Source: Escherichia phage arall
DNA: 64,000 nucleotides
Sequence record: MN850584.1
Strand: one strand, 5' to 3'
The notes beneath the pieces were generated by a model, which worked only from the letters and a program-made list of their open reading frames with translations, had not been told where the DNA came from and ran no database searches. A program made the position numbers and the translations under genes. Shown here one piece after another: positions 8,078-50,101 of the stretch (its first letter is position 1; the number at the start of each line of letters is the position of its first letter).

Positions 8078-8890
8078 TTACTTAGTCAAATGATCTTCTA
8101 TCATTTTTATGAAAGCAGGATTGCTAAAAGCATCTGCTGCCTTTTCTCTGTAAACAAAGACTCCTCTATCTTCGTAAAGAAGAGTTTCTTCGTAATTAAT
8201 TCCTGGGTTAACAACAATCATTTTTGTACCCATATTAAGTGCAGGGAATAATTCCCAATTAAAATTGATAACTTGGTTTGAACATCCTACTACAACAACC
8301 AAATCTTGCATGGTCAAAGTATCAAACAAGTGAGCCATATCTGCATACAAAGGTGCAGCCTCACCAAAAAATACAACATTAGGCTTCACCCAGTTATAAT
8401 CATCTATGTTTATACTATTGTAACCAATATCTACCAGTGTTTTGTAATCTCCAGGATGCATACGGTAAACTACTTCAGGAAGATACCCGTGCACGTGAAT
8501 AACAGAATCCCTGTCCACACCTGCTCGCTCTAGTAGATCATCAACGTTTGTTGTCAAGTTTACTACTTGGTTAGGATATTCCTTAAACCACTTTGCTATT
8601 TGAATATGTGCAGCATTAGGTTGTACATCTTTAAGCTCAACACGTCTTTTGTTATAAAATTCGTGTGTTTTGGCATACAAGTCCATACCGTTCTCGTCTA
8701 CACCACCGACCACTGGAAGATCTGGAGATGTTCTCACACGATAACCTGCTTGGAAAGCTCCAATATCGCAGACCTCTTCTAAGTCATATTCTTCCCATAA
8801 GGCACGACCACTATCTGTGTCTGTTCGGAACGTTCGAATCCCACTGTCTGCACTTAAACCTGCGCCACTAACAAAAATTACTCTTCGCAT
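8078..8890 (-). CDS. Sir2-family (sirtuin-like) NAD-binding protein, no zinc-ribbon
   Basis: 270 aa; GAGLSADSGIRTFR (GAGIS/GIPxFR), TTNVDDLLERAG (TQNID-like), VIHVHG (catalytic His), VVVGCS; no CxxC pairs. Confidence 0.8.
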   Translation of the reverse strand: MRRVIFVSGAGLSADSGIRTFRTDTDSGRALWEEYDLEEVCDIGAFQAGYRVRTSPDLPVVGGVDENGMDLYAKTHEFYNKRRVELKDVQPNAAHIQIAKWFKEYPNQVVNLTTNVDDLLERAGVDRDSVIHVHGYLPEVVYRMHPGDYKTLVDIGYNSINIDDYNWVKPNVVFFGEAAPLYADMAHLFDTLTMQDLVVVVGCSNQVINFNWELFPALNMGTKMIVVNPGINYEETLLYEDRGVFVYREKAADAFSNPAFIKMIEDHLTK

Positions 8891-32031: not shown

Positions 32032-32416
32032 CTACGCTCTCCTTCAATGTTTCAATAGCATCTGCTGCTTCAATATACTTACCTTTGTACATTGCTTTTA
32101 AAGCCTTACGAACAAGATCATCGTCTGTGTATAAATCAATTAGCTGATTAGCTAACTCAATTTTTACAGGATTTTTTAAGTTAGGGTAGGCTTCATACAA
32201 CATATTGTAATACTTATCACTTAATTCTTTTTCAATATGAATAACGTGAATCGCTTTGTTTAGGTTGATCACACGATCACCTTTGTTTCGACAAGCATAC
32301 TTAGCTAACTTAGTGAAACAAGGAGTTGCACCAATTAGATATGCAAGTTCCAAAGGTTGCATACGCATACGTTTGTAGTGATCACCATCAATTTGAATAT
32401 CCAGTGCTGTAGTCAT
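32015..32416 (-). CDS. hypothetical protein
   Basis: 133 aa ORF. Confidence 0.5.
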   Translation of the reverse strand: MTTALDIQIDGDHYKRMRMQPLELAYLIGATPCFTKLAKYACRNKGDRVINLNKAIHVIHIEKELSDKYYNMLYEAYPNLKNPVKIELANQLIDLYTDDDLVRKALKAMYKGKYIEAADAIETLKESVDGFSR

Positions 32417-38815: not shown

Positions 38816-39220
38816 TTATTGTAGCTTAAGTGAACTGCGAAGACGTTTCTCTTGCTGATCACGAATATGTTGTGGAACCTCATGAATTGAGTCGTTACCG
38901 TGCCTATTTTCAACAACTAAAGAGATAACTTGATAACCAAACTCTTCAGCAAGAGTTAAATAAGGTTTAAGTTCTTTCTCTGTGGTTGAAGTGTTAGAGA
39001 CAATAATCTTTTTAATATTAGATGCCATAGCATCACGAACAATACTCTGACACCATGCGTGGGCTTTACCTACATTTTCTGGCTTCCAATCGTAAACACC
39101 CCTTTCTGTGTAATGGTATTGATCTGCCTCACAGATAGGCCAATAACCTTCAGAAATAATTTCTGCTACTGTAGATTTACCTGCACCTGAAACACCACGT
39201 AAAATGATAAGTTGTTTCAT
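38816..39220 (-). CDS. polynucleotide 5'-kinase (T4 Pnk kinase-domain-like)
   Basis: 134 aa; ILRGVSGAGKST P-loop, IIVSNTSTT, EFGYQV parallel T4 Pnk ILTIGCPGSGKST/VIISDTN/EYGWKV. Confidence 0.7.
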   Translation of the reverse strand: MKQLIILRGVSGAGKSTVAEIISEGYWPICEADQYHYTERGVYDWKPENVGKAHAWCQSIVRDAMASNIKKIIVSNTSTTEKELKPYLTLAEEFGYQVISLVVENRHGNDSIHEVPQHIRDQQEKRLRSSLKLQ

Positions 39221-40153
39221 TTAGCCTCCAAAGAAGTTTTCTATTTCTTTACGTCGCTCTTGTGGAGCTAGAGCAGCCCATTGAACCTTCGTAAAATTAT
39301 TTCGAAGCCATTCTATCAAAGTATAATATTCTTCGTCAACAATTTGTTTAGCATTATTTGGGTTGTCCCAAATCATATCCCACTTCTTATTACCACCACG
39401 CATAAGGAACTTCTTAGCAAGATAGTATGGTGACTTAATTTTTAAGAGTAAGTTAAACGGGTAGTTTGTTTCACGAACAACAAAGCCTTCGTGTCTACAA
39501 TGTTTAGACATTTCAACAACATCTGAAAATTTAATCATCGGATAAACTTCAGGACGTTTAAATTTTGTAATAGATGCAATCCCATCAAGAACACCTTCAG
39601 GTAACATGAAACTTGTCCCATCAAGATTTTGAATTCTTGCTCCAATTAAGTATGCGCCTGGTTCTTCTTCGACAATATGTGGATCAGAAGGATCACAGAT
39701 TTCAAAAAGGAAAGTTGCTTTTGCACTTTCTGTCCACTTAATGAAATACTCTATGTCATCACACTCGGAAACAATACGGTTCTTGGCAATAGTTGCAAAG
39801 TCTGACTCTAGGCTCCCTGTTGTTGATACAACAAGTTTCCCTTTGTACACACCTACAGATGCCATAAAACCGTTTACTTTACGGACAGCATCTACAAATT
39901 CATCTCCTGGAAGATCTGTACCATTCTCAAAACGATTAAAGATTTTAGTAAAAGGCCAAATAACAATATTATCTTCTGAGTCAACAACCAACCCACGACA
40001 ATCTAAAAGTCGTTTGTCAACGTTCCACAAGTTATCCCAGAATACATTGTTTTTGTATTTAAGTACAGCAAGACCAGCATACTCTCCAGATTTAACTTCT
40101 TTTTTATGCACTAAACCTTTTGCAATCAGGTCATCACAATTGAACTTAGCCAC
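39221..40153 (-). CDS. RNA ligase-like nucleotidyltransferase
   Basis: 310 aa; motif I RKVNGF (KxNG), HEGFVVRE, LLKIKSP. Confidence 0.6.
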   Translation of the reverse strand: MAKFNCDDLIAKGLVHKKEVKSGEYAGLAVLKYKNNVFWDNLWNVDKRLLDCRGLVVDSEDNIVIWPFTKIFNRFENGTDLPGDEFVDAVRKVNGFMASVGVYKGKLVVSTTGSLESDFATIAKNRIVSECDDIEYFIKWTESAKATFLFEICDPSDPHIVEEEPGAYLIGARIQNLDGTSFMLPEGVLDGIASITKFKRPEVYPMIKFSDVVEMSKHCRHEGFVVRETNYPFNLLLKIKSPYYLAKKFLMRGGNKKWDMIWDNPNNAKQIVDEEYYTLIEWLRNNFTKVQWAALAPQERRKEIENFFGG

Positions 40154-40154
40154 C

Positions 40155-40706
40155 TTAATCTCCTTTGATTATCTTATGATGGTCTACAACAATAATATCA
40201 CGCTTATCCATAATAGAGATGATTTCGTCAAAATGCAAGATTTTCCCGTGTGCATCCCAACCAACATCCAACATTTTCCCATACAAATGATCAGGGAATG
40301 ATCCGTGAGAGTGTCCGTGTAGCATGATTGATCCATGCCCTTGTTTATTCCAGGCAGCCATAGGGTAATGACTTAAGACGAAGAACAATTTCTGATATTT
40401 CACTTCGTCATAATACACAACTTCTCCATACTCTGCAAGCACTTTTCTGTGTTTACTGTAATCATGGTTCCCAACACAGTAAGTAATATCCCCTTGGAGA
40501 CGGGAAGCAATCTTACGGGTATCTTCTTCAGTCCCGAAACAGAAGTCCCCAAGATGGTACATCTTTACTCCTGGTGTTGTGGCACATTTATTCCATGCTT
40601 CGATCAGTGCTTCTGTCATATGCTCCATATCTTCCCACGGGCGATATTCAGGAGCAAACTCTCGGATACGTTTGTGCATAAAATGCAAATCACTTGTAAT
40701 AAACAT
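40155..40706 (-). CDS. calcineurin-like metallophosphoesterase
   Basis: 183 aa; SDLHFMH, GDFCFG, GNHDY, GHSHG. Confidence 0.8.
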   Translation of the reverse strand: MFITSDLHFMHKRIREFAPEYRPWEDMEHMTEALIEAWNKCATTPGVKMYHLGDFCFGTEEDTRKIASRLQGDITYCVGNHDYSKHRKVLAEYGEVVYYDEVKYQKLFFVLSHYPMAAWNKQGHGSIMLHGHSHGSFPDHLYGKMLDVGWDAHGKILHFDEIISIMDKRDIIVVDHHKIIKGD

Positions 40707-41065
40707 TAGTATAATCCCTCGCTGAATAGTTCACTGTTGTGACCATTTCTTTCGTAGTTAATTTGTTTGGCGTTATCTGCAATGACATAAGCATCTTTGC
40801 GACTCCACCAGTTATAATACTGATCAATAAACCCTTGATTATCAGGTAAGCAAAACAGTTTATCGATCAATCCTGCATCTTTTAAAACATTAAGTTGTGC
40901 AGATAGTACAGGATTTGCATGCCTAACACAAGGAATAATTAACTCTTCACCATTGTTAAGAATATACTTGTTCGCAGCGCAGACTATAACACGTTGAGCA
41001 TAGTGATCCTCACCAATCCAAGTGAGAGGTTGGTAACAAATATCATGTTGATTAGTAGCGCACAT
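40706..41065 (-). CDS. hypothetical protein
   Basis: ORF track start (TTG 41068) moved to adjacent ATG. Confidence 0.5.
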   Translation of the reverse strand: MCATNQHDICYQPLTWIGEDHYAQRVIVCAANKYILNNGEELIIPCVRHANPVLSAQLNVLKDAGLIDKLFCLPDNQGFIDQYYNWWSRKDAYVIADNAKQINYERNGHNSELFSEGLY

Positions 41066-41214
41066 CAATTTTCTCCATACTCTTTTAGTCTATCAGCTAA
41101 AAAACTGTAATCAGGAAGTAAAAGATCATTACTCGTATCGCTCCAATTTTCTTCCTCTCTATAGATAAAATGCCCTTCATCCTCTTCTTGCTCTGACCAG
41201 ACTGAGTAATGCAT
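41065..41214 (-). CDS. small acidic protein (49 aa)
   Basis: ATGA overlap with downstream gene; below track cut-off. Confidence 0.3.
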   Translation of the reverse strand: MHYSVWSEQEEDEGHFIYREEENWSDTSNDLLLPDYSFLADRLKEYGEN

Positions 41215-41223
41215 AACACCTAC

Positions 41224-41598
41224 TTAATAGTTAACACGTTTAATTTCAACACCATAGGATGCAATAAAATTTTCCTTAGCTAACATATATTTACCAGCAG
41301 CAGAAGGATTTGATGTATGAACATAGATAGTTTTAAGAGCATCCCATTCACCTGCGTACAACATACATTCTACGTCTAAGAACGCATGATATCCTTCTTG
41401 ATCTTCTCCAAGATCATTATCGAAGTGTATCTCTGAAATATTATTGAAATTATCTTCATCTGAAACAAAAGATGACCAATCCCCAAAAGATTTTAACCAA
41501 ATGGCATCCTCATAACCATAATCTTTAGGATCTCTTAAATCGTCTAACCAAAGAATTTTAGCCACTATCAACCCCCTTCCTGTTTCTCTTCTTTCCAA
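41224..41598 (-). CDS. hypothetical protein
   Basis: 124 aa ORF. Confidence 0.55.
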   Translation of the reverse strand: MERRETGRGLIVAKILWLDDLRDPKDYGYEDAIWLKSFGDWSSFVSDEDNFNNISEIHFDNDLGEDQEGYHAFLDVECMLYAGEWDALKTIYVHTSNPSAAGKYMLAKENFIASYGVEIKRVNY

Positions 41599-43600: not shown

Positions 43601-44494
43601 ATGAAAGTTAGTATTCTACATGGTGTTGACTGTTATGTTACTGATGTAGACGTTAAAGTCTTTACATTCTCTGGTGGAGAACAACATGTTCAACTAGATA
43701 CGAATCTATCAGGTTTCAATCATGCTACAGACAGAATCTTACTCTCTTTAGAAGTAAGATCTGCTAAAGACTTGATGACTTTGGTTATGACTAAGAATGC
43801 ATTGGACAATATGCTATATCATAAACCATATTGTGTTGATTTGCTCATGTTGTATGTGCCATATGCACGACAAGACAGAGTGTGTGAACCTGGGGAAGCA
43901 TTCGGAGTTAAAGCATTTGCTTCTATAATTAATTCATTAAATTTCTCACGTGTTATCGTTGCTGATCCACATAGTGATGTTACTCCAGCGGTGTTTGACA
44001 GACTCTGTGTAATACCTCAAGAAGAGATTGCTTACGAAACTTTAAAGTGGAAGTTACGTATGGAGAATTTTGCTCTTGTTAGTCCTGATGGTGGTGCTCT
44101 TAAGAAAATATTTAAATTATCTAAGAAAATGTCTTTAGATGTGTTCTGTGCAGAGAAGGTTAGAGATACTGCAACAGGTGCTATTGTTCGTACAGACATT
44201 TCTGTACAGGATTTCAATAAGCGTAACCTGATGATCGTAGATGATATCTGTGACGGCGGTAGAACTTTTATTGAATTGGCTAAAGTGCTACGTGCTCGTA
44301 ACGCAGGTAAGATTGAGTTATATGTTACACACGGTATCTTTTCTAAAGGTCTTAAAGAGTTAAGTGAGCACTTTGACTGCATTCATTCTCTTAATGTGTG
44401 GGAAGATAACATCCAAGAAGATTCCGGTGTTCTTGTTAAGAATCAGTCAGATTTGCAACAACAAATTGTATCTCCATACGTGTGGAATTTTTAA
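43601..44494 (+). CDS. PRPP-synthetase-like phosphoribosyl pyrophosphokinase (candidate ADP-ribose pyrophosphokinase, Adps-like)
   Basis: 297 aa; VPYARQDR, VSPDGGALKK, IVDDICDGGRT motifs; RBS AAGGAGA. Confidence 0.8.
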   Translation: MKVSILHGVDCYVTDVDVKVFTFSGGEQHVQLDTNLSGFNHATDRILLSLEVRSAKDLMTLVMTKNALDNMLYHKPYCVDLLMLYVPYARQDRVCEPGEAFGVKAFASIINSLNFSRVIVADPHSDVTPAVFDRLCVIPQEEIAYETLKWKLRMENFALVSPDGGALKKIFKLSKKMSLDVFCAEKVRDTATGAIVRTDISVQDFNKRNLMIVDDICDGGRTFIELAKVLRARNAGKIELYVTHGIFSKGLKELSEHFDCIHSLNVWEDNIQEDSGVLVKNQSDLQQQIVSPYVWNF

Positions 44495-44504
44495 ATAATA
44501 AGTG

Positions 44505-44533
44505 TTGACAATAGGGAGTATGCTTAGTAAGAT
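44505..44533 (+). promoter_or_regulatory. sigma70-like promoter (TTGACA-N17-TAAGAT)
   Basis: consensus -35 with 17-nt spacer. Confidence 0.45.
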
Positions 44534-44565
44534 ACTCCCACACTAACAAACAAGGAGACATAACT

Positions 44566-46299
44566 ATGAATATTTTTGCACCTTTTGCTACTGATTGGTA
44601 TAAACCTGGTCACAAGCAGATGTACAACCAAAATACAAAACTCATTTTCTCTAATTTAACTCCTCGTAATGATAAAAACTTTGCACACTATGCAGATCGT
44701 GAAGCACGTGGTGTAATTGTTTTAGGTATTCGTCGAGCAGTTACTGATGCTCTTGTAACTATGTGGGATAGCTTCTTTAAAATGTCTCGTAGTGCAGCAG
44801 TAAATAAGTTTTATCGTATGTCTAAAAATGCATTAGGTGCTTCTTCTCCTTCTGCTGAATGTTGGGGAGAATTGCACGATTTAGGTTATCTTCCGCTGGA
44901 AGTTCGATCTCTGCCAGAAGGTGTTTTGTGTCCTATTGGTGTTCCTGTGTTTACTGTGCATAATACTTTAGAAAAATTCTTTTGGTTAACTAACTATGTG
45001 GAAACACTATTGTCAGATGAAACTTGGAAGACAATGACTAATGCTACAGCAGCTTTTCAGTATAAGCGTATTGCTATGGCATATGCGATGGCAACGTGTG
45101 ATAATATTGATCACGTTAACTTCCAGTGTCATGATTTTAGCCTACGTGGTTTAAGTAATATTGAAGATGGTTATAAGAGTGGTATCGCTCATTTGGCATC
45201 GTTCACAGGCACAGATAATATTCTGGCTATTGAAACTGTGCATGATTATTATGGTATTGATTATGATCAGTTTGTTGCAGGTTCTATTCCGGCAACAGAA
45301 CATTCAGTAGCAACGACTAACATTGGAGCTATTGTTGAAGATCTGAAGAAACATTTCCCACATCTTAAAGATGATGTTGATGGGCTTCGTTATGTAGCAG
45401 AGAAAGAGTTTCTTCGCCGCTATATTGAAGAAATTGTTCCAGAAGGTTTTTGTTCATATGTAGCAGATTCTTATGATTACTGGGCTGTCTTGACTCGCAT
45501 TCTGGTAGAATTGAAAGAGTCCATTATGTCACGAAATGGTCGTCTTGTTATTCGTCCAGATTCAGGAGATCCGGTTAAAGTTGTTGCAGGATACAATGTT
45601 GAATCTTTTGCTAACTATGAAGACCTTTTAAATAATGGTATTGCTACAGCCACTGAAGTAGTTCATTTGGCTGATGTTAATAAGTATTACAATGTTCTTC
45701 AGGATTGCAGTGTTGCTGATTGTATTGATGAAACTTATGAGATTCCTTATTGTGAAGCAGTAGGTTCTATTCAAATCCTTTGGGAAGTGTTTGGTGGTAC
45801 TATCAACCGAAAAGGCTACAAGGTTCTTGATCAGCACATCGGTATGATTTATGGTGATTCTATTACTGTTGAACGAGAACACGAGATCTTACGCCGACTG
45901 AAGAAGAAAGGTTTTGCAGCTTCCAATATTGTATTTGGTGTTGGTAGTTATACTTATCAGTTCAATACACGAGATACTTTTGGTTTTGCTGTTAAAGCAA
46001 CAGGTAGTATCATCGGTGAACACGAAATTTTGGTAAGTAAGGAGCCTAAAACTGATCCTGGTAAACGCTCTGCAAAAGGTTTTATTAAGGTTGTTAAGGA
46101 TACAAATGGTAAACTTTCTCTTGTGGATAATCTTTCTTTTAAAGATATTCAAGATGAAGACAATGAGTTAAAAGTTATCTTCAGGGATGGTACGGTTATT
46201 ACACCACAAGTAGAAGGACGTGATGAAACATTTACTGATATCCGCAACCGTGTTGATGTAGAGGTTCTTCGTACTATGGGAACCATCCAGGTTGACTAA
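44566..46299 (+). CDS. nicotinamide phosphoribosyltransferase-like (NadV/NAMPT family; candidate Namat)
   Basis: 577 aa; N-terminal FATDWYKPGHKQMY and overall NAMPT-like organisation; RBS AAGGAGA. Confidence 0.8.
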   Translation: MNIFAPFATDWYKPGHKQMYNQNTKLIFSNLTPRNDKNFAHYADREARGVIVLGIRRAVTDALVTMWDSFFKMSRSAAVNKFYRMSKNALGASSPSAECWGELHDLGYLPLEVRSLPEGVLCPIGVPVFTVHNTLEKFFWLTNYVETLLSDETWKTMTNATAAFQYKRIAMAYAMATCDNIDHVNFQCHDFSLRGLSNIEDGYKSGIAHLASFTGTDNILAIETVHDYYGIDYDQFVAGSIPATEHSVATTNIGAIVEDLKKHFPHLKDDVDGLRYVAEKEFLRRYIEEIVPEGFCSYVADSYDYWAVLTRILVELKESIMSRNGRLVIRPDSGDPVKVVAGYNVESFANYEDLLNNGIATATEVVHLADVNKYYNVLQDCSVADCIDETYEIPYCEAVGSIQILWEVFGGTINRKGYKVLDQHIGMIYGDSITVEREHEILRRLKKKGFAASNIVFGVGSYTYQFNTRDTFGFAVKATGSIIGEHEILVSKEPKTDPGKRSAKGFIKVVKDTNGKLSLVDNLSFKDIQDEDNELKVIFRDGTVITPQVEGRDETFTDIRNRVDVEVLRTMGTIQVD

Positions 46300-46605: not shown

Positions 46606-46716
46606 ATGTCTACAGAAATTATTTTTGGCTTATCTGTTTTTATTGCTATTGTATCTTTTGTATGCGGTTATACATTAGGGTACAGATCAAGAAAAAATAT
46701 TGTAAAAACTAGTTGA
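46606..46716 (+). CDS. small membrane protein (36 aa)
   Basis: RBS AAGGAAACAG; hydrophobic IIFGLSVFIAIVSFVCGY; below track cut-off. Confidence 0.3.
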   Translation: MSTEIIFGLSVFIAIVSFVCGYTLGYRSRKNIVKTS

Positions 46717-46742
46717 CAACATAGCTAGTTATTTGCTAAGAT
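46713..46742 (+). promoter_or_regulatory. sigma70-like promoter (TTGACA-N18-TAAGAT)
   Basis: hexamers upstream of gene at 46772. Confidence 0.4.
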
Positions 46743-46771: not shown

Positions 46772-47038
46772 ATGACAGAAAAGACTTATGGTAAAGAATT
46801 GATTGAGAAGCACGTATTGATTGATAATAAAGGTGGAGCAATCTTTATTTTTGAACCTGAATCAGTTCTTACTGAAAACGAAAATGGTAGCGTTAGCCTT
46901 AAAACAGAAAGTTTGGTAATTGACTTCCTTGCTCTTCTGGATGAAATGGGGCTTCCTCACGAAGAAGAAGCAGCTATTGCTTTGATTGCAGTTCTTCTGG
47001 AGAAACGCGAAGCTGGTGAAATGACCCAGTATGCTTAA
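46772..47038 (+). CDS. hypothetical protein
   Basis: 88 aa; RBS AAGGAGAAAA. Confidence 0.55.
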   Translation: MTEKTYGKELIEKHVLIDNKGGAIFIFEPESVLTENENGSVSLKTESLVIDFLALLDEMGLPHEEEAAIALIAVLLEKREAGEMTQYA

Positions 47039-47045
47039 TATTCAA

Positions 47046-47121
47046 GGTTCCATAGCTCACTGACGAGAGCGCACACCTCATAAGTGTCGAGGGCAGGGAT
47101 TGTAACCCTGGGGAACCACCA
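47046..47121 (+). tRNA. tRNA-Met/Ile2 (anticodon CAT), non-canonical T-loop ATTGTAA
   Basis: hand-folded cloverleaf: acceptor GGTTCCA/GGGAACC (one A.G), D-arm GCTC-ACTGACGA-GAGC, anticodon loop CTCATAA, T-stem CAGGG/CCCTG, CCA encoded. Confidence 0.55.
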
Positions 47122-47152
47122 TTTAAAAGGAGGTGCTATGCATCTCCTATAT

Positions 47153-47238
47153 GCAAGTGTGGTGGAATTGGTGATACACATTGTGCTTAAAACGCAACGC
47201 TTAAATGCTTGAGGGTTCGAATCCCTCCACTTGCACCA
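47153..47238 (+). tRNA. tRNA-Leu (anticodon TAA)
   Basis: acceptor GCAAGTG/CACTTGC, anticodon loop CTTAAAA, long variable arm, T-loop TTCGAAT, CCA encoded. Confidence 0.75.
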
Positions 47239-47240
47239 AC

Positions 47241-47346
47241 GCCTAGTAGGGTATTTGGTAATTCCGAGGCCATCAAAGCCTGAAAAATATGTTAGACCGC
47301 TTTGTCTAACTAAATACGAAATATGGTTCGATTCCATAACTAGGCT
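47241..47346 (+). other. atypical over-long tRNA-like gene (106 nt)
   Basis: perfect 7-bp acceptor GCCTAGT/ACTAGGC and canonical T-arm TATGG-TTCGATT-CCATA, but about 30 nt too much between them, including a 7-bp hairpin GTTAGAC-CGCTTT-GTCTAAC. Confidence 0.35.
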
Positions 47347-47379
47347 TCAATTTAAATAGTAATTTTAGTAAAAAATATC

Positions 47380-47408
47380 TTGACATTTACTTAGTTTTTT
47401 GTTATAGT
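47380..47408 (+). promoter_or_regulatory. sigma70 consensus promoter (TTGACA-N17-TATAGT)
   Basis: near-consensus hexamers ending 12 nt upstream of tRNA-like gene at 47420. Confidence 0.55.
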
Positions 47409-47419
47409 CGTTATGAAAA

Positions 47420-47501
47420 CGGGGTGTATCTCACCTGACTTCTAATCAGGCGTTAACCGAGTAATTGGAGTATGCAGGTTCGAATCCTGTCACCCCGGCC
47501 A
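47420..47501 (+). other. atypical tRNA-like gene with anticodon hairpin TCT (Arg-type) and no recognisable D-arm
   Basis: perfect acceptor CGGGGTG/CACCCCG + CCA, T-arm GCAGG-TTCGAAT-CCTGT, anticodon arm CCTGA-CTTCTAA-TCAGG; only 7 nt (TATCTCA) where D-arm should be; 23-nt variable region with GNRA-capped stem. Confidence 0.4.
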
Positions 47502-47519
47502 AAAAGTTTTAAAAACTAC

Positions 47520-47549
47520 TTGACAAGCAAGATAGTTTTATGTTAGATT
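47520..47549 (+). promoter_or_regulatory. sigma70-like promoter (TTGACA-N17/18-TTAGAT)
   Basis: hexamers upstream of tRNA-Ser. Confidence 0.4.
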
Positions 47550-47564
47550 TAAAGTATGATAACT

Positions 47565-47654
47565 GGAAGGTAGGGCGCAGCGGTGCGCAACCAGGTTTGA
47601 ACCCTGGCCCATTGTAGCGATACGGTGATGGTTCGACTCCATTATCTTCCTCCA
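47565..47654 (+). tRNA. tRNA-Ser (anticodon TGA)
   Basis: acceptor GGAAGGT/ATCTTCC, anticodon arm CCAGG-TTTGAAC-CCTGG, long variable arm, T-loop TTCGACT, CCA. Confidence 0.7.
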
Positions 47655-47660
47655 AATTCA

Positions 47661-47825
47661 ATGAGTGATTTTATGAATTATAAAACTATTGGACAGGTTG
47701 TTACCGGAGTTAAGATTGTAAATAATAAAGTTGTTTATGAGTATTCTAATCTTCAACAATCTGAAGATGGTAAGAATATTCGTATGGTAAAAGCAGAACA
47801 AAAAGATTCCGGTTGTTTTGAATAA
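47661..47825 (+). CDS. small hypothetical protein inside tRNA cluster
   Basis: ORF track 47625..47825 trimmed to first ATG after tRNA-Ser 3' end; no clear RBS. Confidence 0.3.
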   Translation: MSDFMNYKTIGQVVTGVKIVNNKVVYEYSNLQQSEDGKNIRMVKAEQKDSGCFE

Positions 47826-47833
47826 TTAAGAAC

Positions 47834-47919
47834 GGTAGATTGGTGAAATGGTAGCCACAACAGTTTGCTAAACTGTCGTCGGAAACGGCGTGTAGGTTCA
47901 AGTCCTACATCTACCGCCA
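47834..47919 (+). tRNA. tRNA-Ser (anticodon GCT)
   Basis: acceptor GGTAGAT/ATCTACC, anticodon loop TTGCTAA, long variable arm, T-loop TTCAAGT, CCA. Confidence 0.7.
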
Positions 47920-48054
47920 AGTTATCTTTAATGTAGCTTGTAATCTTACTTTAGCAGAGTAAATCTTCGGCAAGTGGCGGTAACCACTTTACCGATACCC
48001 CAATACTTCATAGCTAAGTGCCGCAAACACTGGCTATTTTAAAGATAATTTTAT

Positions 48055-48129
48055 ACATCGTTAGCCAAGCGGTAAGGCACTTGACTTTTAATCAAGGGAG
48101 CGAAGGTTCGAATCCTTCACGATGTACCA
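48055..48129 (+). tRNA. tRNA-Lys (anticodon TTT)
   Basis: acceptor ACATCGT/ACGATGT, D-arm GCC-AAGCGGTAA-GGC, anticodon loop CTTTTAA, T-loop TTCGAAT, CCA. Confidence 0.75.
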
Positions 48130-48134
48130 AACAC

Positions 48135-48221
48135 GTAGGTATCGCATAGCGGCAATTGCTGGAGACTGTAAATCTCCTGCCCTTCTGGGCTTCGTTGGTT
48201 CGAGTCCAACTACCTGCACCA
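48135..48221 (+). tRNA. tRNA-Tyr (anticodon GTA)
   Basis: acceptor GTAGGTA/TACCTGC (U2.G71), anticodon arm GGAGA-CTGTAAA-TCTCC, long variable arm, T-loop TTCGAGT, CCA. Confidence 0.7.
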
Positions 48222-48228
48222 AATTAAA

Positions 48229-48313
48229 GATGGATTGGCCTAGTGGTTGGGCGACGGACTGTTAATCCGTGAACGAAAGTTCTAGCAAGGTTCAAATCCT
48301 TGATCCATCGCCA
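48229..48313 (+). tRNA. class-II (long variable arm) tRNA with anticodon GTT (Asn codons) in a Ser/Tyr-like body
   Basis: acceptor GATGGAT/ATCCATC, 3-bp D-stem GCC/GGC, anticodon arm ACGGA-CTGTTAA-TCCGT, 15-nt variable arm GAACGAAAGTTCTAG, T-loop TTCAAAT, CCA. Confidence 0.5.
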
Positions 48314-48320
48314 GAATTAT

Positions 48321-48397
48321 GGACTTGTAGAGTTAAGGTAAAACCCCAGTCGCCAAGAGGCTTCTGGAATTGCAGGTATCGAATCCTGTCGAGTCCA
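48321..48397 (+). pseudogene. degenerate tRNA-like element (possible tRNA pseudogene)
   Basis: acceptor-like GGACTTG/CGAGTCC and T-arm-like GCAGG-TATCGAAT-CCTGT (8-nt loop); no D-arm or anticodon arm found. Confidence 0.3.
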
Positions 48398-48403
48398 AGT
48401 ATT

Positions 48404-48478
48404 GCTCCTATCGTATAACGGCTATTACGGTTGCCTTGTAAGCAACTTATCAGGGTTCGAGTCCTTGTGGGAGCACCA
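48404..48478 (+). tRNA. tRNA-Thr (anticodon TGT)
   Basis: acceptor GCTCCTA/TGGGAGC, anticodon arm GTTGC-CTTGTAA-GCAAC, T-loop TTCGAGT, CCA. Confidence 0.75.
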
Positions 48479-48495
48479 ATTTTAACTCTAAAGGA

Positions 48496-48825
48496 GTGTA
48501 TGTGACAGAAAAAGAGTTAGAGAAATATTTTAATATCAATGTTTTCGATGGTTTTGATGATATTGAAGATGTTGAAAGATATTATGAAGTAGAGTTAGAT
48601 AAGGATAACATTGTAATTCTTTCTGCCACTTATGATTGTGCATATTATGAAGGTGAATCTCACGTTTATTTTTATGATATGAAAACATCTTTGTTTTATG
48701 AAGTACACGCATATCATTGTTCTTGTTATGGTTTAGAAGGTCAGTGGGAACCTGAAGAAATAGGTGATTTGGATTTTACTATTGCATATCTAAACAGACG
48801 TGGTGCATCTACTATTTTAAAATAA
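48496..48825 (+). CDS. hypothetical acidic protein inside tRNA cluster
   Basis: 109 aa; GTG start at RBS AAGGAG (alternative GTG 48502). Confidence 0.5.
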   Translation: MYVTEKELEKYFNINVFDGFDDIEDVERYYEVELDKDNIVILSATYDCAYYEGESHVYFYDMKTSLFYEVHAYHCSCYGLEGQWEPEEIGDLDFTIAYLNRRGASTILK

Positions 48826-48839
48826 ATATCAAAAGCCTC

Positions 48840-48869
48840 TTGACAAAGTGGCTAATAATATGTTAGAGT
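48840..48869 (+). promoter_or_regulatory. sigma70-like promoter (TTGACA-N18-TAGAGT)
   Basis: hexamers upstream of tRNA-Gly. Confidence 0.4.
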
Positions 48870-48880
48870 AATATTGTTAA

Positions 48881-48955
48881 GCGGGTATAGTGTTAATTGT
48901 AGCATATGAGGTTTCCACCCTCCAGGTGCAGGTTCAAGTCCTGTTACTCGCTCCA
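48881..48955 (+). tRNA. tRNA-Gly (anticodon TCC)
   Basis: acceptor GCGGGTA/TACTCGC, anticodon loop TTTCCAC, T-loop TTCAAGT, CCA. Confidence 0.65.
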
Positions 48956-49302
48956 AGATTATTTAAATGGAATCGCTAGAGAAAATTTCTCTTTTCGCTC
49001 ATGGTTTTCTCCTTCAAACTCTAGCGGTTCTTTTTAAGTGATTTTTAGTTTATTGGAGATTCACTGCCTTAGTATGAGCTAAAATCGAGGAGCCATCGAA
49101 CTGTCTGATTAATGATTTGCGAATCATTATAGTTTTAAGACCCCGGCAGTTTTATGGTGTACCTCTTGAATGTGAATGATGACGGGTTTATGGTTATCCT
49201 GGTCGTTAAATATCCAAAAACCTATGTTCCCCTTGATGGCTTGCGCAGGCAATGCCAATAAGTCCTGCATTTTCATTTAAAAGAGAATTTATAATGGAAA
49301 AA

Positions 49303-49380
49303 GATGAACTTAAGTATGCTAAGCCTCTGGCTTCTGCTGCACGAAAAGCAGTTCGTCACTTTGTGGTAACACTGAAGTAA
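49303..49380 (+). CDS. very small ORF (25 aa) in structured noncoding stretch
   Basis: ATG 9 nt after AAGAGAA; MEKDELKYAKPLASAARKAVRHFVVTLK; speculative. Confidence 0.2.
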   Translation, partial: DELKYAKPLASAARKAVRHFVVTLK

Positions 49381-49385
49381 TTTAT

Positions 49386-49460
49386 TGGAGATTAGCCTAG
49401 TGGGAAGGCAACGGCCTTTGAAGTCGTGATGACTAGGTTCGATTCCTAGATCTCCAGCCA
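49386..49460 (+). tRNA. tRNA-Gln (anticodon TTG)
   Basis: acceptor TGGAGAT/ATCTCCA (U1-A72), anticodon arm ACGGC-CTTTGAA-GTCGT, T-loop TTCGATT, CCA. Confidence 0.75.
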
Positions 49461-49467
49461 AGATTTA

Positions 49468-49543
49468 CAGTGCGTAGCGCAGTTGGTAGCGTGGGAGCTT
49501 TGGATGCTTCGGGTCGCAGGTTCGAGTCCTGCCGCACTGACCA
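49468..49543 (+). tRNA. tRNA-Pro (anticodon TGG)
   Basis: acceptor CAGTGCG/CGCACTG (C1-G72), anticodon loop TTTGGAT, T-loop TTCGAGT, CCA. Confidence 0.75.
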
Positions 49544-49548
49544 AATTT

Positions 49549-49623
49549 GCAGAGATAGCTGAGACGGATTAGTGCTACCCTGAAAAGGTAGAAAGGATGG
49601 ATCGTTACCATCTCTCTGCACCA
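49549..49623 (+). tRNA. tRNA-Phe (anticodon GAA), non-canonical T-loop ATCGTTA
   Basis: acceptor GCAGAGA/TCTCTGC, anticodon arm CTACC-CTGAAAA-GGTAG, T-stem GATGG/CCATC, CCA. Confidence 0.6.
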
Positions 49624-49700
49624 AATAACACCATCCAAGGAGTAGACTTGGTTAACTGTCAATAGCACATTGAGGCTTCTTACAGTGGTGTACTTATTAT

Positions 49701-49785
49701 GGCTAAGTGGTGGAATGGTATACACGATACGCTTAGAACGTATTGCCCCAAGGGATTGTGAGTTCGAGTCTCACCTTAGCTACCA
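49701..49785 (+). tRNA. tRNA-Leu (anticodon TAG)
   Basis: acceptor GGCTAAG/CTTAGCT, anticodon arm ATACG-CTTAGAA-CGTAT, long variable arm, T-loop TTCGAGT, CCA. Confidence 0.7.
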
Positions 49786-49800
49786 AATTATTACAGATTG

Positions 49801-49879
49801 TGCGGGATAGAGGAGTCTGGTCGTCCTCGCCAGTTTCATATGCTGGAGATCATCGGTTCAAATCCGATTCCCGCCTCCA
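49801..49879 (+). tRNA. tRNA-Met/Ile2 (anticodon CAT)
   Basis: acceptor TGCGGGA/TCCCGCC (1-72 mismatch), D-arm GAGG/CCTC, anticodon arm CCAGT-TTCATAT-GCTGG, T-loop TTCAAAT, CCA. Confidence 0.6.
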
Positions 49880-49956
49880 ATAAATACCTCCCTTCTGGTG
49901 TAATGATTAAATTGCATTGACACTTCAAGGAACTCATAGCCGGGTAGATTTAAAAG

Positions 49957-50020
49957 AGTATGGTACTCAATATGGCTCCAAACCATAGATCAAGGGGTTC
50001 GATTCCTCACCTTGCTGCCA
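49957..50020 (+). other. short (64 nt) tRNA-like gene with anticodon hairpin CCA (Trp-type), no D-arm
   Basis: anticodon arm TATGG-CTCCAAA-CCATA, T-arm AGGGG-TTCGATT-CCTCA, 3' CCTTGCT-G-CCA pairs with AGTATGG (6/7); only 7 nt (TACTCAA) in D-arm position. Confidence 0.35.
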
Positions 50021-50025
50021 ATTAT

Positions 50026-50101
50026 TGTGGTATCGTACAGATGGTTAGTACACTCGACCGATAATCGAGAAACAACGGTTCGACTCCGTTTACCACGACC
50101 A
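50026..50101 (+). tRNA. tRNA-Ile (anticodon GAT)
   Basis: acceptor TGTGGTA/TACCACG, D-arm GTAC/GTAC, anticodon arm CTCGA-CCGATAA-TCGAG (C33), T-loop TTCGACT, CCA. Confidence 0.65.

What the first reader, a model, noticed from the sequence alone, without database searches (positions are those of the whole stretch)
47046..50101. Large tRNA cluster with its own promoters, interleaved with small ORFs
About 15 canonical tRNAs (Met, Leu x2, Ser x2, Lys, Tyr, Thr, Gly, Gln, Pro, Phe, Met/Ile, Ile) plus atypical ones lie in 3 kb, served by several TTGACA-N17-TAnAnT promoters, with two protein ORFs between them. Large phage tRNA sets can compensate codon usage or replace host tRNAs cleaved by anticodon-nuclease defenses. 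The kinase/ligase/phosphatase module elsewhere in the window favours the second reading.
Basis: partly seen in the sequence, partly recalled or inferred. Interest (0 to 1): 0.5.

Follow-up and report, generated by a model that had tools for sequence, protein, structure and literature searches.

The report
Phage tRNA array with rearranged tRNA-Arg
The region is the known tRNA gene cluster of a phi92-like E. coli phage, mostly supplying decoders for codons the host reads poorly, but it also holds an unannotated arginine tRNA whose D-arm parts sit in the wrong order, a fold conserved in many phages and not reported for bacterial translation in the papers I could search.

Summary
The window comes from a phi92-like myovirus (Justusliebigvirus; 99.5% identical to phage AV123). 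Fifteen tRNA genes lie on the + strand at 47046-50101. Strong sigma-70-type promoters sit at 46713, 47380, 47520 and 48840, and two small ORFs lie between the tRNAs. The cluster itself is already annotated and published.

All U34 phage tRNAs read A-ending codons that the phage uses 1.5 to 8.5 times more often than E. coli does, so codon supply explains most of the set. Lys, Tyr, Asn and an initiator-like tRNA duplicate abundant host tRNAs. The tRNA-Lys core is a local hot spot of allele replacement. A cREC/phosphoesterase/Rnl1-ligase/kinase RNA-repair module lies about 6-8 kb away. Protection against tRNA damage is therefore plausible for that subset, but it is not shown.

The most interesting item is an unannotated element at 47420-47501. 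It is a tRNA-Arg(UCU) with normal acceptor, anticodon and T arms. Its 3-bp D-stem encloses the anticodon arm, and a D-loop-like segment follows it. Sixty-six distinct homologues covary perfectly, and every anticodon in the family is an arginine anticodon. Outside isolated-phage records and viral contigs the fold appeared only on 4 metagenome-bin contigs that carry tRNA arrays.

The parts
46713..46742 (+). Promoter-like site TTGACA-18-TAAGAT with TG, upstream of ORF 46772-47038 and the first two tRNAs
47046..47121 (+). tRNA-like gene with anticodon CAT and CCA end. The T loop is non-canonical (ATTGTAA). It is called by ARAGORN only.
   Evidence: no Rfam hit; phi92 labels it 'hypothetical tRNA'
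47153..47238 (+). tRNA-Leu(UAA)
47243..47345 (+). Element A: a probable decayed type-II tRNA remnant with a perfect 7-bp closing stem. It is an indel absent from phi92.
   Evidence: z = -1.3; no Rfam hit; 102 of 103 nt missing in phi92
47380..47408 (+). Best promoter match of the region (TTGACA-17-TATAGT, 11 of 12, with TG), ending 11 nt before element B
47420..47501 (+). Element B: a non-cloverleaf tRNA-Arg(UCU). Acceptor stem 47420-26 with 47491-97. U8 A9 at 47427-28. D-stem-like helix 47430-32 with 47459-61, which encloses the anticodon arm 47434-47450 (loop CUUCUAA). Linker CGTTAACC. D-loop-like TAATTGGAGTAT at 47462-73. T arm 47474-90. Discriminator G followed by CCA.
47520..47549 (+). 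Promoter-like site before tRNA-Ser(UGA)
47565..47654 (+). tRNA-Ser(UGA), atypical: U73 discriminator, 3-bp D stem, 86% identical to the T5 homologue
47673..47825 (+). ORF of 50 aa, phage family of unknown function (phrog_22441)
47834..47919 (+). tRNA-Ser(GCU)
47920..48054 (+). Element C: a conserved structured RNA of about 120-135 nt, closed by an 11-bp stem and unannotated
   Evidence: (z = -4.3)
48055..48313 (+). Contiguous tRNA-Lys(UUU), tRNA-Tyr(GUA) and tRNA-Asn(GUU). The Asn tRNA has a long variable arm.
48320..48398 (+). Element D: a tRNA-shaped RNA without an anticodon loop. It exists as two alleles whose acceptor and T stems differ by compensatory changes.
   Evidence: (z = -3.5)
48404..48478 (+). 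tRNA-Thr(UGU)
48502..48825 (+). ORF of 107 aa (phi92 gp112 homologue; phrog_8792, unknown function)
48840..48869 (+). Promoter-like site before tRNA-Gly
48881..48955 (+). tRNA-Gly(UCC)
49046..49393 (+). Segment 96-98% identical to the rIII region of T4-like phages. It carries a disrupted rIII; only the C-terminal 32 aa are in frame. The direct repeat TTTATTGGAGATT occurs at about 49053 and 49381.
49386..49623 (+). tRNA-Gln(UUG), tRNA-Pro(UGG) and tRNA-Phe(GAA)
49701..49879 (+). tRNA-Leu(UAG) and a CAT tRNA with a 1-72 mismatch. The latter is most similar to the E. coli initiator (71%) and to the T5 CAT tRNA at 32281-32358; the PARIS paper lists a tRNA-fMet in the same T5 fragment.
   Evidence: PMC11464382
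49938..50020 (+). Element G: a tRNA-Trp(CCA)-like gene with an 11-nt linker between the acceptor and D stems and a CCA end
   Evidence: (22.9 bits)
50026..50101 (+). tRNA-Ile(GAU), with C33 in the anticodon loop
38816..41598 (-). RNA-repair-like module. cREC_REC protein at 41224-41598, phosphoesterase at 40155-40706, Rnl1-family RNA ligase at 39221-40153 and AAA_33 / polynucleotide-kinase-like P-loop protein at 38816-39220. An uncharacterised 120-aa ORF lies at 40706-41068.

Best explanation
This is the early tRNA gene array of a phi92-type virulent myovirus. It is transcribed by host RNA polymerase from several strong sigma-70-type promoters and cut into individual tRNAs by host processing enzymes. 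The transcription and processing steps are inferred.

Its main job is supply. The AT-rich phage (37% GC) uses A- and U-ending codons heavily, and E. coli reads many of these with single-copy minor tRNAs. The array provides those decoders.

The decoder for AGA, the most phage-enriched codon, is not missing as published lists imply. It is element B at 47420-47501, a tRNA-Arg(UCU) with a rearranged core. Its 3-bp D-stem is formed by the strand after U8-A9 and a strand that lies 3' of the anticodon arm. The D-stem and anticodon stem therefore form one continuous hairpin. The D-loop-like segment (A-A-n-U-G-G-A-G-U-A-U) runs from that stem straight into the T stem. The model predicts a normal L shape with altered backbone connectivity, with counterparts of U8, A14, R15, G18-G19, A20 (the Arg identity base), A21 and Y48. 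This part is inferred, not shown.

A minority of the array (Lys, Tyr, Asn, the initiator-like CAT tRNA) duplicates abundant host tRNAs. This subset is best read as insurance against loss or cleavage of host tRNAs during infection, working alongside the nearby RNA-repair module.
For: Identity and prior annotation: and PMC12210895.

tRNAs and promoters.

Codon supply: AGA is 11.1 per 1000 in the phage against 1.2 in the host. All U34 cognate codons are enriched. Mean log2 RSCU ratio is +0.58 for cognate codons and -0.26 for the others, p=0.02.

Element B structure: in 66 distinct homologues the acceptor, anticodon and T stems are 95-99% paired, with many double changes. In the D-stem-like helix, pair 12-41 is UA 40, GC 13, AU 12, CG 1, and pair 13-40 is CG 53, GC 7, UA 6. 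Neither is ever unpaired. Sliding the 3' partners drops pairing to 33-46%. A rival local hairpin fails.

Element B identity: anticodons are UCU in 64, UCG in 1 and CCU in 1, all arginine. A related copy carries ACG. The discriminator is a purine in 61 of 66, and CCA is encoded in 47 of 66. The acceptor stem and T arm are almost identical to T5's canonical tRNA-Arg(UCU).

Element B context: in 53 viral loci it lies on the same strand as the tRNA array. A canonical Arg-UCU was called in only 3 of them. One of those calls is B itself, and another is a locus where B is degenerate. A covariance model separates the family (86-102 bits) from canonical tRNAs (35 bits or less).

Insurance subset: the tRNA-Lys core differs at 17 of 75 positions between the window and phi92, whereas other tRNAs differ at 0-3. 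Two alleles exist. The repair module is documented.
Against: There are no expression, aminoacylation or decoding data for any of these RNAs.

ARAGORN does not call B even at relaxed thresholds. RNAalifold does not predict the 3-bp helix on energy grounds. The homologues were retrieved with sequence patterns that fixed parts of the core, so some of the apparent invariance is by construction.

[quoted passage not shown] Stability of an unusual fold is therefore a real concern.

For the G34 tRNAs (Phe, Ile, Asn, Ser-GCU), the Watson-Crick cognate C-ending codons are depleted in the phage; only Tyr's TAC is slightly up (1.2x). Supply holds for them only through wobble reading of U-ending codons.

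The E. coli codon table comes from only 42 genes. The phage ORFs were chosen heuristically.

The window's tRNA-Lys anticodon arm is host-like at the AriB site.
Confidence: 0.6

Rival explanations
1. The array is primarily a counter-defence device. The phage tRNAs replace host tRNAs that are cleaved or depleted by anticodon nucleases (PrrC, PARIS AriB, retron-Eco7 PtuAB, colicin-like enzymes), and the repair module mends what is cut.
For: Published cases show that T5 tRNA-Lys neutralises PARIS, and that T5-group (T5/SP15) tRNA-Tyr and supplied tRNA-Lys rescue phages from retron-Eco7 and PrrC170 (PMC11464382; PMC11555353). In the window, Lys, Tyr and Asn are contiguous. They duplicate multi-copy host tRNAs. 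tRNA-Lys shows allele replacement confined to the D and anticodon arms, and the type-2 allele carries point variants at stem positions 30 and 31. The RNA-repair module is present.
Against: Most members read exactly the A-ending codons expected from composition, as does the classic eight-tRNA set of T4 (my own knowledge). The anticodon loops of Lys, Tyr, Asn and Thr are identical to the host's, and the window's tRNA-Lys keeps C40/A41. No defence assay exists for this genus in the papers I searched.
Confidence: 0.2
2. Element B and the other odd elements are not working tRNAs. They are decaying pseudogenes, processing punctuation for the polycistronic transcripts, or tRNA-shaped decoys that bind a host or phage factor.
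For: Elements A and D lack a usable anticodon loop. Element A is an indel. ARAGORN rejects B. tRNA-shaped RNAs without decoding function exist elsewhere (my own knowledge).
Against: For B, purifying selection is extreme: 66 variants from unrelated phage groups keep every helix through compensatory changes. The only anticodons seen are arginine ones, including switches to UCG, CCU and ACG. This is what decoding predicts, not what a decoy or punctuation role predicts. B also fills the one obvious gap in otherwise near-complete phage tRNA sets.
Confidence: 0.12
3. The array is mainly an evolutionary by-product. tRNA genes are hot spots for homing endonucleases and recombination and are carried along with little selective value.
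For: Relatives carry HNH endonuclease genes inside the array. A fragment of T4-type rIII sits in it. Indels and allele swaps are frequent.
Against: Twelve of the fifteen tRNAs differ at 0-3 positions between the window and phi92. Gene order is kept across about 55 genomes. The set matches phage codon demand.
Confidence: 0.05

Closest known systems
tRNA gene clusters of large virulent coliphages (T4's eight-tRNA cluster, the T5 tRNA-rich region, phi92/rV5-type arrays)
   Same: They share a dense same-strand array and host-type promoters. They carry mostly decoders of A-ending codons that are rare in E. coli. Small ORFs, homing endonucleases and non-tRNA stable RNAs are interspersed. Several members resemble T5 tRNAs at 65-86% identity.
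   Different: This array contains no canonical tRNA-Arg(UCU), which both T4 and T5 have. The AGA decoder is the rearranged element B. The array also holds an Asn tRNA with a long variable arm and several tRNA-shaped RNAs without anticodon loops.
Canonical bacterial tRNA-Arg(UCU) (E. coli argU; T5 tRNA-Arg)
   Same: Same anticodon loop CUUCUAA, 7-bp acceptor stem, 5-bp T stem with a UUCGAAU loop, purine discriminator and CCA end. The acceptor and T arms are nearly identical to T5 tRNA-Arg.
   Different: The order of core elements differs. The canonical order is D-stem 5' strand, D loop, D-stem 3' strand, anticodon arm, variable loop. In B the order is D-stem strand, anticodon arm, linker, complementary strand, D-loop-like segment. 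B has no separate D hairpin and no ordinary variable loop.
D-arm-lacking mitochondrial tRNAs (for example mammalian and nematode mt-tRNA-Ser) and the engineered 'mini HisT' of E. coli (PMC7609411, PMC11551756)
   Same: Both are three-helix secondary structures in which the anticodon helix is effectively lengthened and no D hairpin is present.
   Different: B keeps a covarying D-stem equivalent and an invariant GG-containing segment that could still dock on the T loop. It would act in a bacterial cytoplasm with unmodified host factors. It is phage-encoded and widely conserved.
T4 Pnkp + Rnl1 tRNA repair pathway that counters PrrC
   Same: An Rnl1-family ligase (PF09511, phrog_562) lies next to a P-loop kinase and an end-healing phosphoesterase.
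   Different: The kinase and phosphatase are separate proteins. The phosphatase is a metallophosphoesterase, not the HAD-type domain of T4 Pnkp. A cREC domain protein is added. No target is known.

Membership tests
Phage tRNA gene array | Many tRNA genes packed on one strand in a few kb of a phage genome | tested here: met
   15 ARAGORN calls in 3.06 kb, all on the + strand. The window is 99.5% identical to phage AV123 and 97.6% to phi92, where the array is annotated.
Phage tRNA gene array | The individual genes fit the tRNA covariance model | tested here: met
   13 of 15 score above the Rfam RF00005 gathering score. Ser-UGA and the first CAT gene do not.
tRNA (Rfam RF00005), applied to element B | Score above the curated gathering threshold | tested here: met
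   38.6 bits against 29. The model skips the D arm (15 model positions against 4 sequence positions) and inserts 20 nt after the anticodon arm.
tRNA (cloverleaf), applied to element B | A D hairpin between position 9 and the anticodon arm | tested here: not met
   Only 5 nt lie between U8-A9 and the anticodon stem. Three of them pair with a strand 3' of the anticodon arm.
tRNA (cloverleaf), applied to element B | Acceptor stem of 7 bp, anticodon stem of 5 bp with a 7-nt loop, T stem of 5 bp with a UUCRANY loop, all maintained by covariation | tested here: met
   99.4%, 94.8% and 98.8% of cells are paired, and 16 of the 17 pairs show double changes.
tRNA-Arg identity, applied to element B | C35, U36 or G36, a purine at 73, and A20 in the D loop (E. 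coli ArgRS identity set, from my own knowledge) | tested here: inconclusive
   C35 is present in 66 of 66. Position 36 is U in 65 and G in 1. A purine is at 73 in 61 of 66. An invariant A follows the GG, but whether it occupies the A20 position in three dimensions cannot be tested here.
tRNA-Arg identity, applied to element B | Aminoacylation with arginine | not testable with these tools
   This needs ArgRS charging assays or acid-gel Northern blots.
D-armless (mitochondrial-type) tRNA | No D-stem equivalent and no D-loop to T-loop contact | tested here: not met
   A covarying 3-bp D-stem equivalent and an invariant UGGAGUAU segment are present.
Nuclease-resistant phage tRNA-Lys (T5 type, anti-PARIS) | Changes in the anticodon stem at or around the AriB cut site (positions 40/41) relative to E. 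coli tRNA-Lys | tested here: not met
   Positions 39-43 read TCAAG in the window, TCAAT in E. coli and ACCAT in T5 (PMC11464382). The alternative allele in phi92-type genomes reads CTCCA.
Nuclease-resistant phage tRNA-Lys (T5 type, anti-PARIS) | Rescue of infection on PARIS-positive hosts | not testable with these tools
   No assay on this genus was found in the papers searched.
T4-type Pnkp/Rnl1 tRNA repair | An Rnl1-family RNA ligase | tested here: met
   PF09511 with E 4.5e-14 and phrog_562 with E 1.1e-66. No sequence match among solved structures.
T4-type Pnkp/Rnl1 tRNA repair | A bifunctional Pnkp combining a P-loop 5' kinase with a HAD-type 3' phosphatase | tested here: not met
   The kinase is a stand-alone 134-aa AAA_33 protein. 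The phosphatase is a separate metallophosphoesterase.

The most novel reading that the evidence does not exclude
Virulent phages of many lineages (Justusliebigvirus, Felixounavirus, Asteriusvirus, Mydovirus, Streptomyces Karimacvirus and many uncultured contigs) encode a class of topologically rearranged tRNAs. The D-stem is completed by a strand 3' of the anticodon arm, and the D loop runs directly into the T stem. These RNAs are charged and used by the unmodified bacterial translation apparatus. They are mostly tRNA-Arg, with single examples carrying ACG and the isoleucine anticodon UAU. They would be the first natural non-cloverleaf elongator tRNAs working in a bacterial cytoplasm. The altered core might let them escape host enzymes that recognise the canonical D arm, such as nucleases, modification enzymes or decay pathways.
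Probability: 0.45. Interest if true: 0.85.

Novelty: new variant of a known kind. Interest (0 to 1): 0.62.

Why it matters
The cluster as a whole is ordinary and already annotated. Published tRNA lists for this phage genus, made with both tRNAscan-SE and ARAGORN, contain no arginine tRNA (PMC12210895). Yet AGA is the codon most over-used by the phage relative to its host.

If element B is a working tRNA, two things follow. First, codon-usage and tRNA-complement studies of hundreds of phage genomes miss their most needed decoder. [quoted passage not shown]

The fold would be a natural experiment on which features of the tRNA core ArgRS, EF-Tu, RNase P, the CCA enzyme and the ribosome actually require.

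The two-allele tRNA-Lys and the adjacent four-gene repair module also give concrete, testable handles on whether this phage group is under pressure from tRNA-cleaving defences.

Tried and rejected
- A local 4-bp hairpin with a GUAA loop is the single-sequence minimum-free-energy fold of B's long 'variable' region. I rejected it: its closing pair is unpaired in 16 of 32 sequences and it shows no real covariation.

- My first hand-fold of element G was a 64-nt tRNA-Trp with no D arm. I rejected it. Homologues show that the acceptor stem starts 14-16 nt further upstream, and that a 4-bp D stem is present after an 11-nt linker.

- I considered element A as an opal-suppressor or Sec-like tRNA (loop CAUCAAA). 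I rejected it: position 33 is A, there is no Rfam hit even at E<=10, the folding z-score is -1.3, and the element is absent from phi92.

- Pfam gave nothing for the ORFs inside the array. PHROGs placed them in families of unknown function.

- A search of solved structures with the RNA ligase gave no hit.

- A strict IMG/VR pattern for element C found only 2 loci. Its covariation therefore rests on four sequences.

- A pattern scan for further tRNA-Lys alleles found only the three phi92-like contigs I already held.

Full report
**What the window is.** The 4.7 kb around the finding is 99.5% identical to Escherichia phage AV123 and 97.6% identical to phi92. More than 50 other Justusliebigvirus genomes are similar. 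In those records the region is annotated as a run of tRNA genes with a few hypothetical ORFs. It lies downstream of a ribose-phosphate pyrophosphokinase gene and a nicotinamide phosphoribosyltransferase gene. A 2025 paper on phage BME3 lists 16 tRNAs for the genus, found with tRNAscan-SE and ARAGORN. The list contains no arginine tRNA (PMC12210895).

**Checking the observation.** ARAGORN finds 15 tRNA genes on the + strand between 47046 and 50101.
- Rfam's tRNA model passes its gathering score for 13 of them. It gives only a sub-threshold tRNA-Sec hit for Ser(UGA) and nothing for the first CAT gene.
- Rfam adds a hit above threshold at 47420-47498 and a weak one at 49957-50017.
- The pattern TTGACA-N16-18-TAnnnT occurs 19 times in the window against 4.9 +/- 2.3 in shuffles. 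Four sites, all with an extended -10 TG, lie at 46713, 47380, 47520 and 48840 on the + strand.
- The two ORFs between the tRNAs (50 and 107 aa) belong to phage protein families of unknown function.

**Codon supply.** I compared 104 window ORFs (17,556 codons) with 42 annotated MG1655 genes (14,748 codons).
- The cognate codon of every U34 phage tRNA is enriched in the phage: ACA 4.5x, CTA 2.7x, TTA 2.4x, GGA 2.1x, TCA 1.95x, CAA and CCA 1.6x, AAA 1.5x.
- AGA is the most enriched codon of all, at 11.1 against 1.2 per 1000 (8.5x).
- Cognate codons as a group have a higher phage-to-host RSCU ratio than the rest (mean log2 +0.58 against -0.26; Mann-Whitney p=0.02).
- For the G34 tRNAs, the C-ending cognate codons are depleted (Tyr's TAC is the exception, 1.2x) but the U-ending wobble codons are enriched.
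- From my knowledge of the K-12 tRNA gene set, the host counterparts of Leu-UAA, Leu-UAG, Ser-UGA, Ser-GCU, Thr-UGU, Gly-UCC, Pro-UGG, Arg-UCU and Trp-CCA are single-copy genes. This is partly visible.

This is the classic codon-compensation pattern, and it explains most of the array.

**What supply does not explain.** Lys-UUU, Asn-GUU, Tyr-GUA, Ile-GAU and the initiator are multi-copy in the host (my own knowledge).
- Lys, Tyr and Asn sit side by side at 48055-48313.
- The phage tRNAs are only 57-75% identical to their E. coli counterparts. Even so, the anticodon loops of Lys, Tyr, Asn and Thr are identical to the host's.
- The window's tRNA-Lys keeps C40/A41, where PARIS AriB cuts the E. coli tRNA. 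T5's resistant tRNA-Lys differs there (PMC11464382).
- tRNA-Lys is a striking local hot spot. Between the window and phi92 it differs at 17 of 75 positions plus one gap, whereas twelve other tRNAs differ at 0-3.
- Only the D arm, anticodon arm and variable loop are replaced. The acceptor and T arms are identical.
- The window's allele is found at 99% identity or more in 10 phage records. The alternative allele (anticodon arm AGGGG CUUUUAA CUCCA) is found at 99% or more in 26 records and at 95-99% in 19. The two single-base variants I could read (phi92 G31U and a PD06-like G30U) both fall in the anticodon stem.

This is what selection by an enzyme that reads the tRNA-Lys anticodon stem-loop would produce. 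It is circumstantial.

**The repair module.** It lies on the minus strand and has four recognised genes:
- a cREC 'cyclic-phosphate processing receiver' domain protein at 41224-41598 (PF20274, E 3.9e-13);
- a phosphoesterase at 40155-40706 (phrog_547, E 8.5e-55);
- a T4 Rnl1-family RNA ligase at 39221-40153 (PF09511, E 4.5e-14; phrog_562, E 1.1e-66);
- a 134-aa P-loop protein at 38816-39220 (AAA_33, E 5e-10; polynucleotide-kinase phrog_505, E 5.5e-9).

An uncharacterised 120-aa ORF (40706-41068) lies between the cREC gene and the phosphoesterase gene. The other 'ligase', 'kinase' and 'phosphatase' genes in the window are an ATP-dependent DNA ligase, a thymidine kinase and a calcineurin-like phosphoesterase. 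The module works like T4 Pnkp plus Rnl1 but is built differently. It indicates pressure from RNA-cleaving systems. It does not tell us what the tRNAs are for.

**Element B: the fold.** The Rfam hit at 47420-47498 skips the D arm and inserts 20 nt after the anticodon arm.
- BLAST showed the same 80-nt element at 80-88% identity in Felix O1-like phages, 121Q-like jumbo phages, Klebsiella Mydovirus and even Streptomyces phage BoomerJR. It is nearly always unannotated.
- Three pattern scans of IMG/VR, together with those isolates, gave 66 distinct sequences.
- On that alignment the acceptor stem is 99.4% paired, the anticodon stem 94.8% and the T stem 98.8%, with double changes in 16 of the 17 pairs.
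- Sliding the partners by one to three columns drops pairing to 33-46%.
- There is no D hairpin. Instead, three bases after U8-A9-U (47430-32) pair with three bases 3' of the anticodon arm (47459-61). The middle pair is UA 40, GC 13, AU 12, CG 1. The inner pair is CG 53, GC 7, UA 6. Neither is ever unpaired, and neither column was fixed in scans two and three.
- The alternative local hairpin predicted for the single sequence is not conserved.
- RNAalifold independently returns the three-arm fold without a D arm.

**Element B: what the fold implies (inference).** In a normal tRNA the D stem stacks on the anticodon stem. One strand of that stack is continuous (22-25, 26, 27-31). The other is nicked between 44 and 10.
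- In B the nick is closed by a linker (CGUUAAYN), so the D stem and anticodon stem form one long hairpin. In a related Arg-ACG copy the linker is only UCA.
- The chain enters from U8-A9 at the other end of the D stem.
- The segment that follows the stem, U-A-A-n-U-G-G-A-G-U-A-U, is invariant apart from position n (one sequence also has A for the U before the GG). It reads like a D loop: A14, R15, Y16-17, G18, G19, A20, A21. It ends in a U directly before the T stem, where Y48 normally sits.
- B could therefore build an ordinary L shape with a different backbone path.

**Element B: evidence that it decodes arginine.**
- The anticodons are UCU in 64 sequences, UCG in 1 and CCU in 1. A lower-scoring relative with the same topology carries ACG. 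All are arginine anticodons, and C35 is invariant.
- The discriminator is a purine in 61 of 66 sequences, and CCA is encoded in 47 of 66.
- The acceptor and T arms of the window's copy are almost identical to T5's canonical tRNA-Arg(UCU).
- In 53 viral loci, B always lies on the strand of the tRNA array. ARAGORN calls a canonical Arg-UCU in only three of them. One call is B itself, one is in a locus where B is degenerate, and one lies adjacent to B.
- Felix O1-type sets with 22-26 tRNAs covering almost all amino acids have no other AGA decoder.
- In the window, B has the best promoter of the region ending 11 nt upstream.
- phi92 itself carries B, unannotated.

**Element B: distribution.**
- A covariance model built from the family scores members at 86-102 bits and canonical tRNAs at 35 bits or less.
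- One intermediate hit has the same topology with the isoleucine anticodon UAU. The fold is therefore not strictly limited to arginine.
- A pattern scan of one genome from each of 185,579 prokaryotic species found only four true copies. All are on metagenome-bin contigs carrying phage-like tRNA arrays.
- 5,426 complete E. coli genomes have no match.

[quoted passage not shown] Three text searches found nothing. That is absence of evidence in one library only.

**Other elements in the gaps.**
- Element C (47920-48054) folds far better than shuffles (z = -4.3). It is conserved in 183 phage records from Justusliebigvirus, Phapecoctavirus, Vequintavirus and T5-like phages, and it is unannotated.
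- Element D (48320-48398) is tRNA-shaped, has a 4-5-nt loop where the anticodon loop should be, and has an 8-nt T loop. The window and phi92 carry different alleles with compensatory changes in the acceptor and T stems.
- Element G (49938-50020) is a Trp(CCA) tRNA-like gene with an 11-nt linker before the D stem. Homologues occur in Klebsiella phages, and an IMG/VR contig shows compensatory changes.
- Element A is probably a decayed tRNA.
- tRNA-Asn has a long variable arm with a GAAA-capped stem. A few uncultured phages share this feature.
- The segment 49046-49393 is 96-98% identical to the rIII region of T4-like phages and carries a disrupted rIII.

**Verdict.** The cluster is real, known and mostly explained by codon supply. 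The defence reading is plausible for the Lys/Tyr/Asn/initiator subset but not demonstrated. The rearranged tRNA-Arg is the part that deserves follow-up.

**Main caveats.**
- All evidence is computational.
- Homologues were retrieved by patterns that fix part of the core.
- The host codon table is from 42 genes.
- The three-dimensional model is inference.

Noticed in passing
window 47920-48054: A structured RNA of about 120-135 nt lies between tRNA-Ser(GCU) and tRNA-Lys. It folds far better than shuffles (z = -4.3). It is conserved in 183 phage records across Justusliebigvirus, Phapecoctavirus, Vequintavirus and T5-like phages, it is unannotated, and it has no Rfam match. It may be comparable to T4's stable 'species 1/2' RNAs (that comparison is from my own knowledge).
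   Followed up: partly
window 48320-48398: A tRNA-shaped RNA with a 4-5-nt loop in place of the anticodon loop and an 8-nt T loop. The window and phi92 carry divergent alleles (21 mismatches, 9 gaps) that keep the acceptor and T stems through compensatory changes. This suggests a selected function other than decoding.
   Followed up: partly
window 49938-50020: A tRNA-Trp(CCA)-like gene with an 11-nt linker (TAGATTTAAAA) between the acceptor and D stems, a small D loop and a CCA end. It scores below the Rfam threshold (22.9 bits). It is nevertheless conserved, with compensatory changes, in an IMG/VR contig (L051) and at 81% identity in Klebsiella phages.
   Followed up: partly
window 48055-48129; L002 3131-3206; L056; L069: tRNA-Lys exists as two alleles about 80% identical that differ only in the D arm, anticodon arm and variable loop, in genomes that are otherwise 97-99% identical. 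The majority allele has point variants at anticodon-stem positions 30 and 31 in phi92 and in a PD06-like contig.
   Followed up: partly
window 48229-48313: tRNA-Asn(GUU) is 85 nt long, with a long variable arm (stem GAAC/GUUC, loop GAAA). Asn tRNAs are normally class I. Similar long-arm Asn, Gln, Lys and Ile tRNAs occur in a few IMG/VR phage contigs.
   Followed up: partly
L076 2689-2763; L078 5506-5582; L090 13348-13426: Lower-scoring relatives of the rearranged fold carry anticodons ACG (Arg, with only a 3-nt linker), UAU (Ile, helix CCC/GGG) and UCU. The topology is therefore not confined to one sequence family.
   Followed up: partly
window 49046-49393: A segment 96-98% identical to the rIII region of T4-like phages sits between tRNA-Gly and tRNA-Gln. 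The rIII reading frame is disrupted. The 13-nt direct repeat TTTATTGGAGATT occurs at both ends, and the right copy overlaps the start of tRNA-Gln. This suggests recent recombination with a T4-like phage.
   Followed up: partly
window 41224-41598 (-): A protein with a cREC 'cyclic-phosphate processing receiver' domain (PF20274) is encoded upstream of the phosphoesterase/Rnl1/kinase genes, with one uncharacterised ORF between. Together they extend the repair module to four recognised genes.
   Followed up: partly
window 43601-46299 (+) and 8078-8890 (-): Ribose-phosphate pyrophosphokinase and nicotinamide phosphoribosyltransferase genes lie directly upstream of the array, and a Sir2-like deacetylase gene lies further away (by synteny with the phi92 and AV123 annotations). 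An NAD salvage pair of this kind may counter NAD-depleting defences (that idea is from my own knowledge).
   Followed up: no
window 50026-50101: tRNA-Ile(GAU) has C at position 33 of the anticodon loop (CCGAUAA), where U33 is nearly universal.
   Followed up: no
window 47046-47121: The first 'tRNA-Met' is called by ARAGORN only. Its T loop is AUUGUAA and pair 7-66 is mismatched, yet it is identical in the window, phi92 and AV123.
   Followed up: no
relatives VEcB, ALITA, PATM, SD2, ZYD: Several close relatives carry an HNH homing endonuclease gene inserted in the array. The array is a hot spot for mobile-element insertion, as in T4 and T5.
   Followed up: no
window 47243-47345: A 103-nt element with a perfect 7-bp closing stem, a TTCGATT T loop and a long hairpin is present in about 30 genomes and is precisely absent from phi92. 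It is probably a decaying type-II tRNA.
   Followed up: partly
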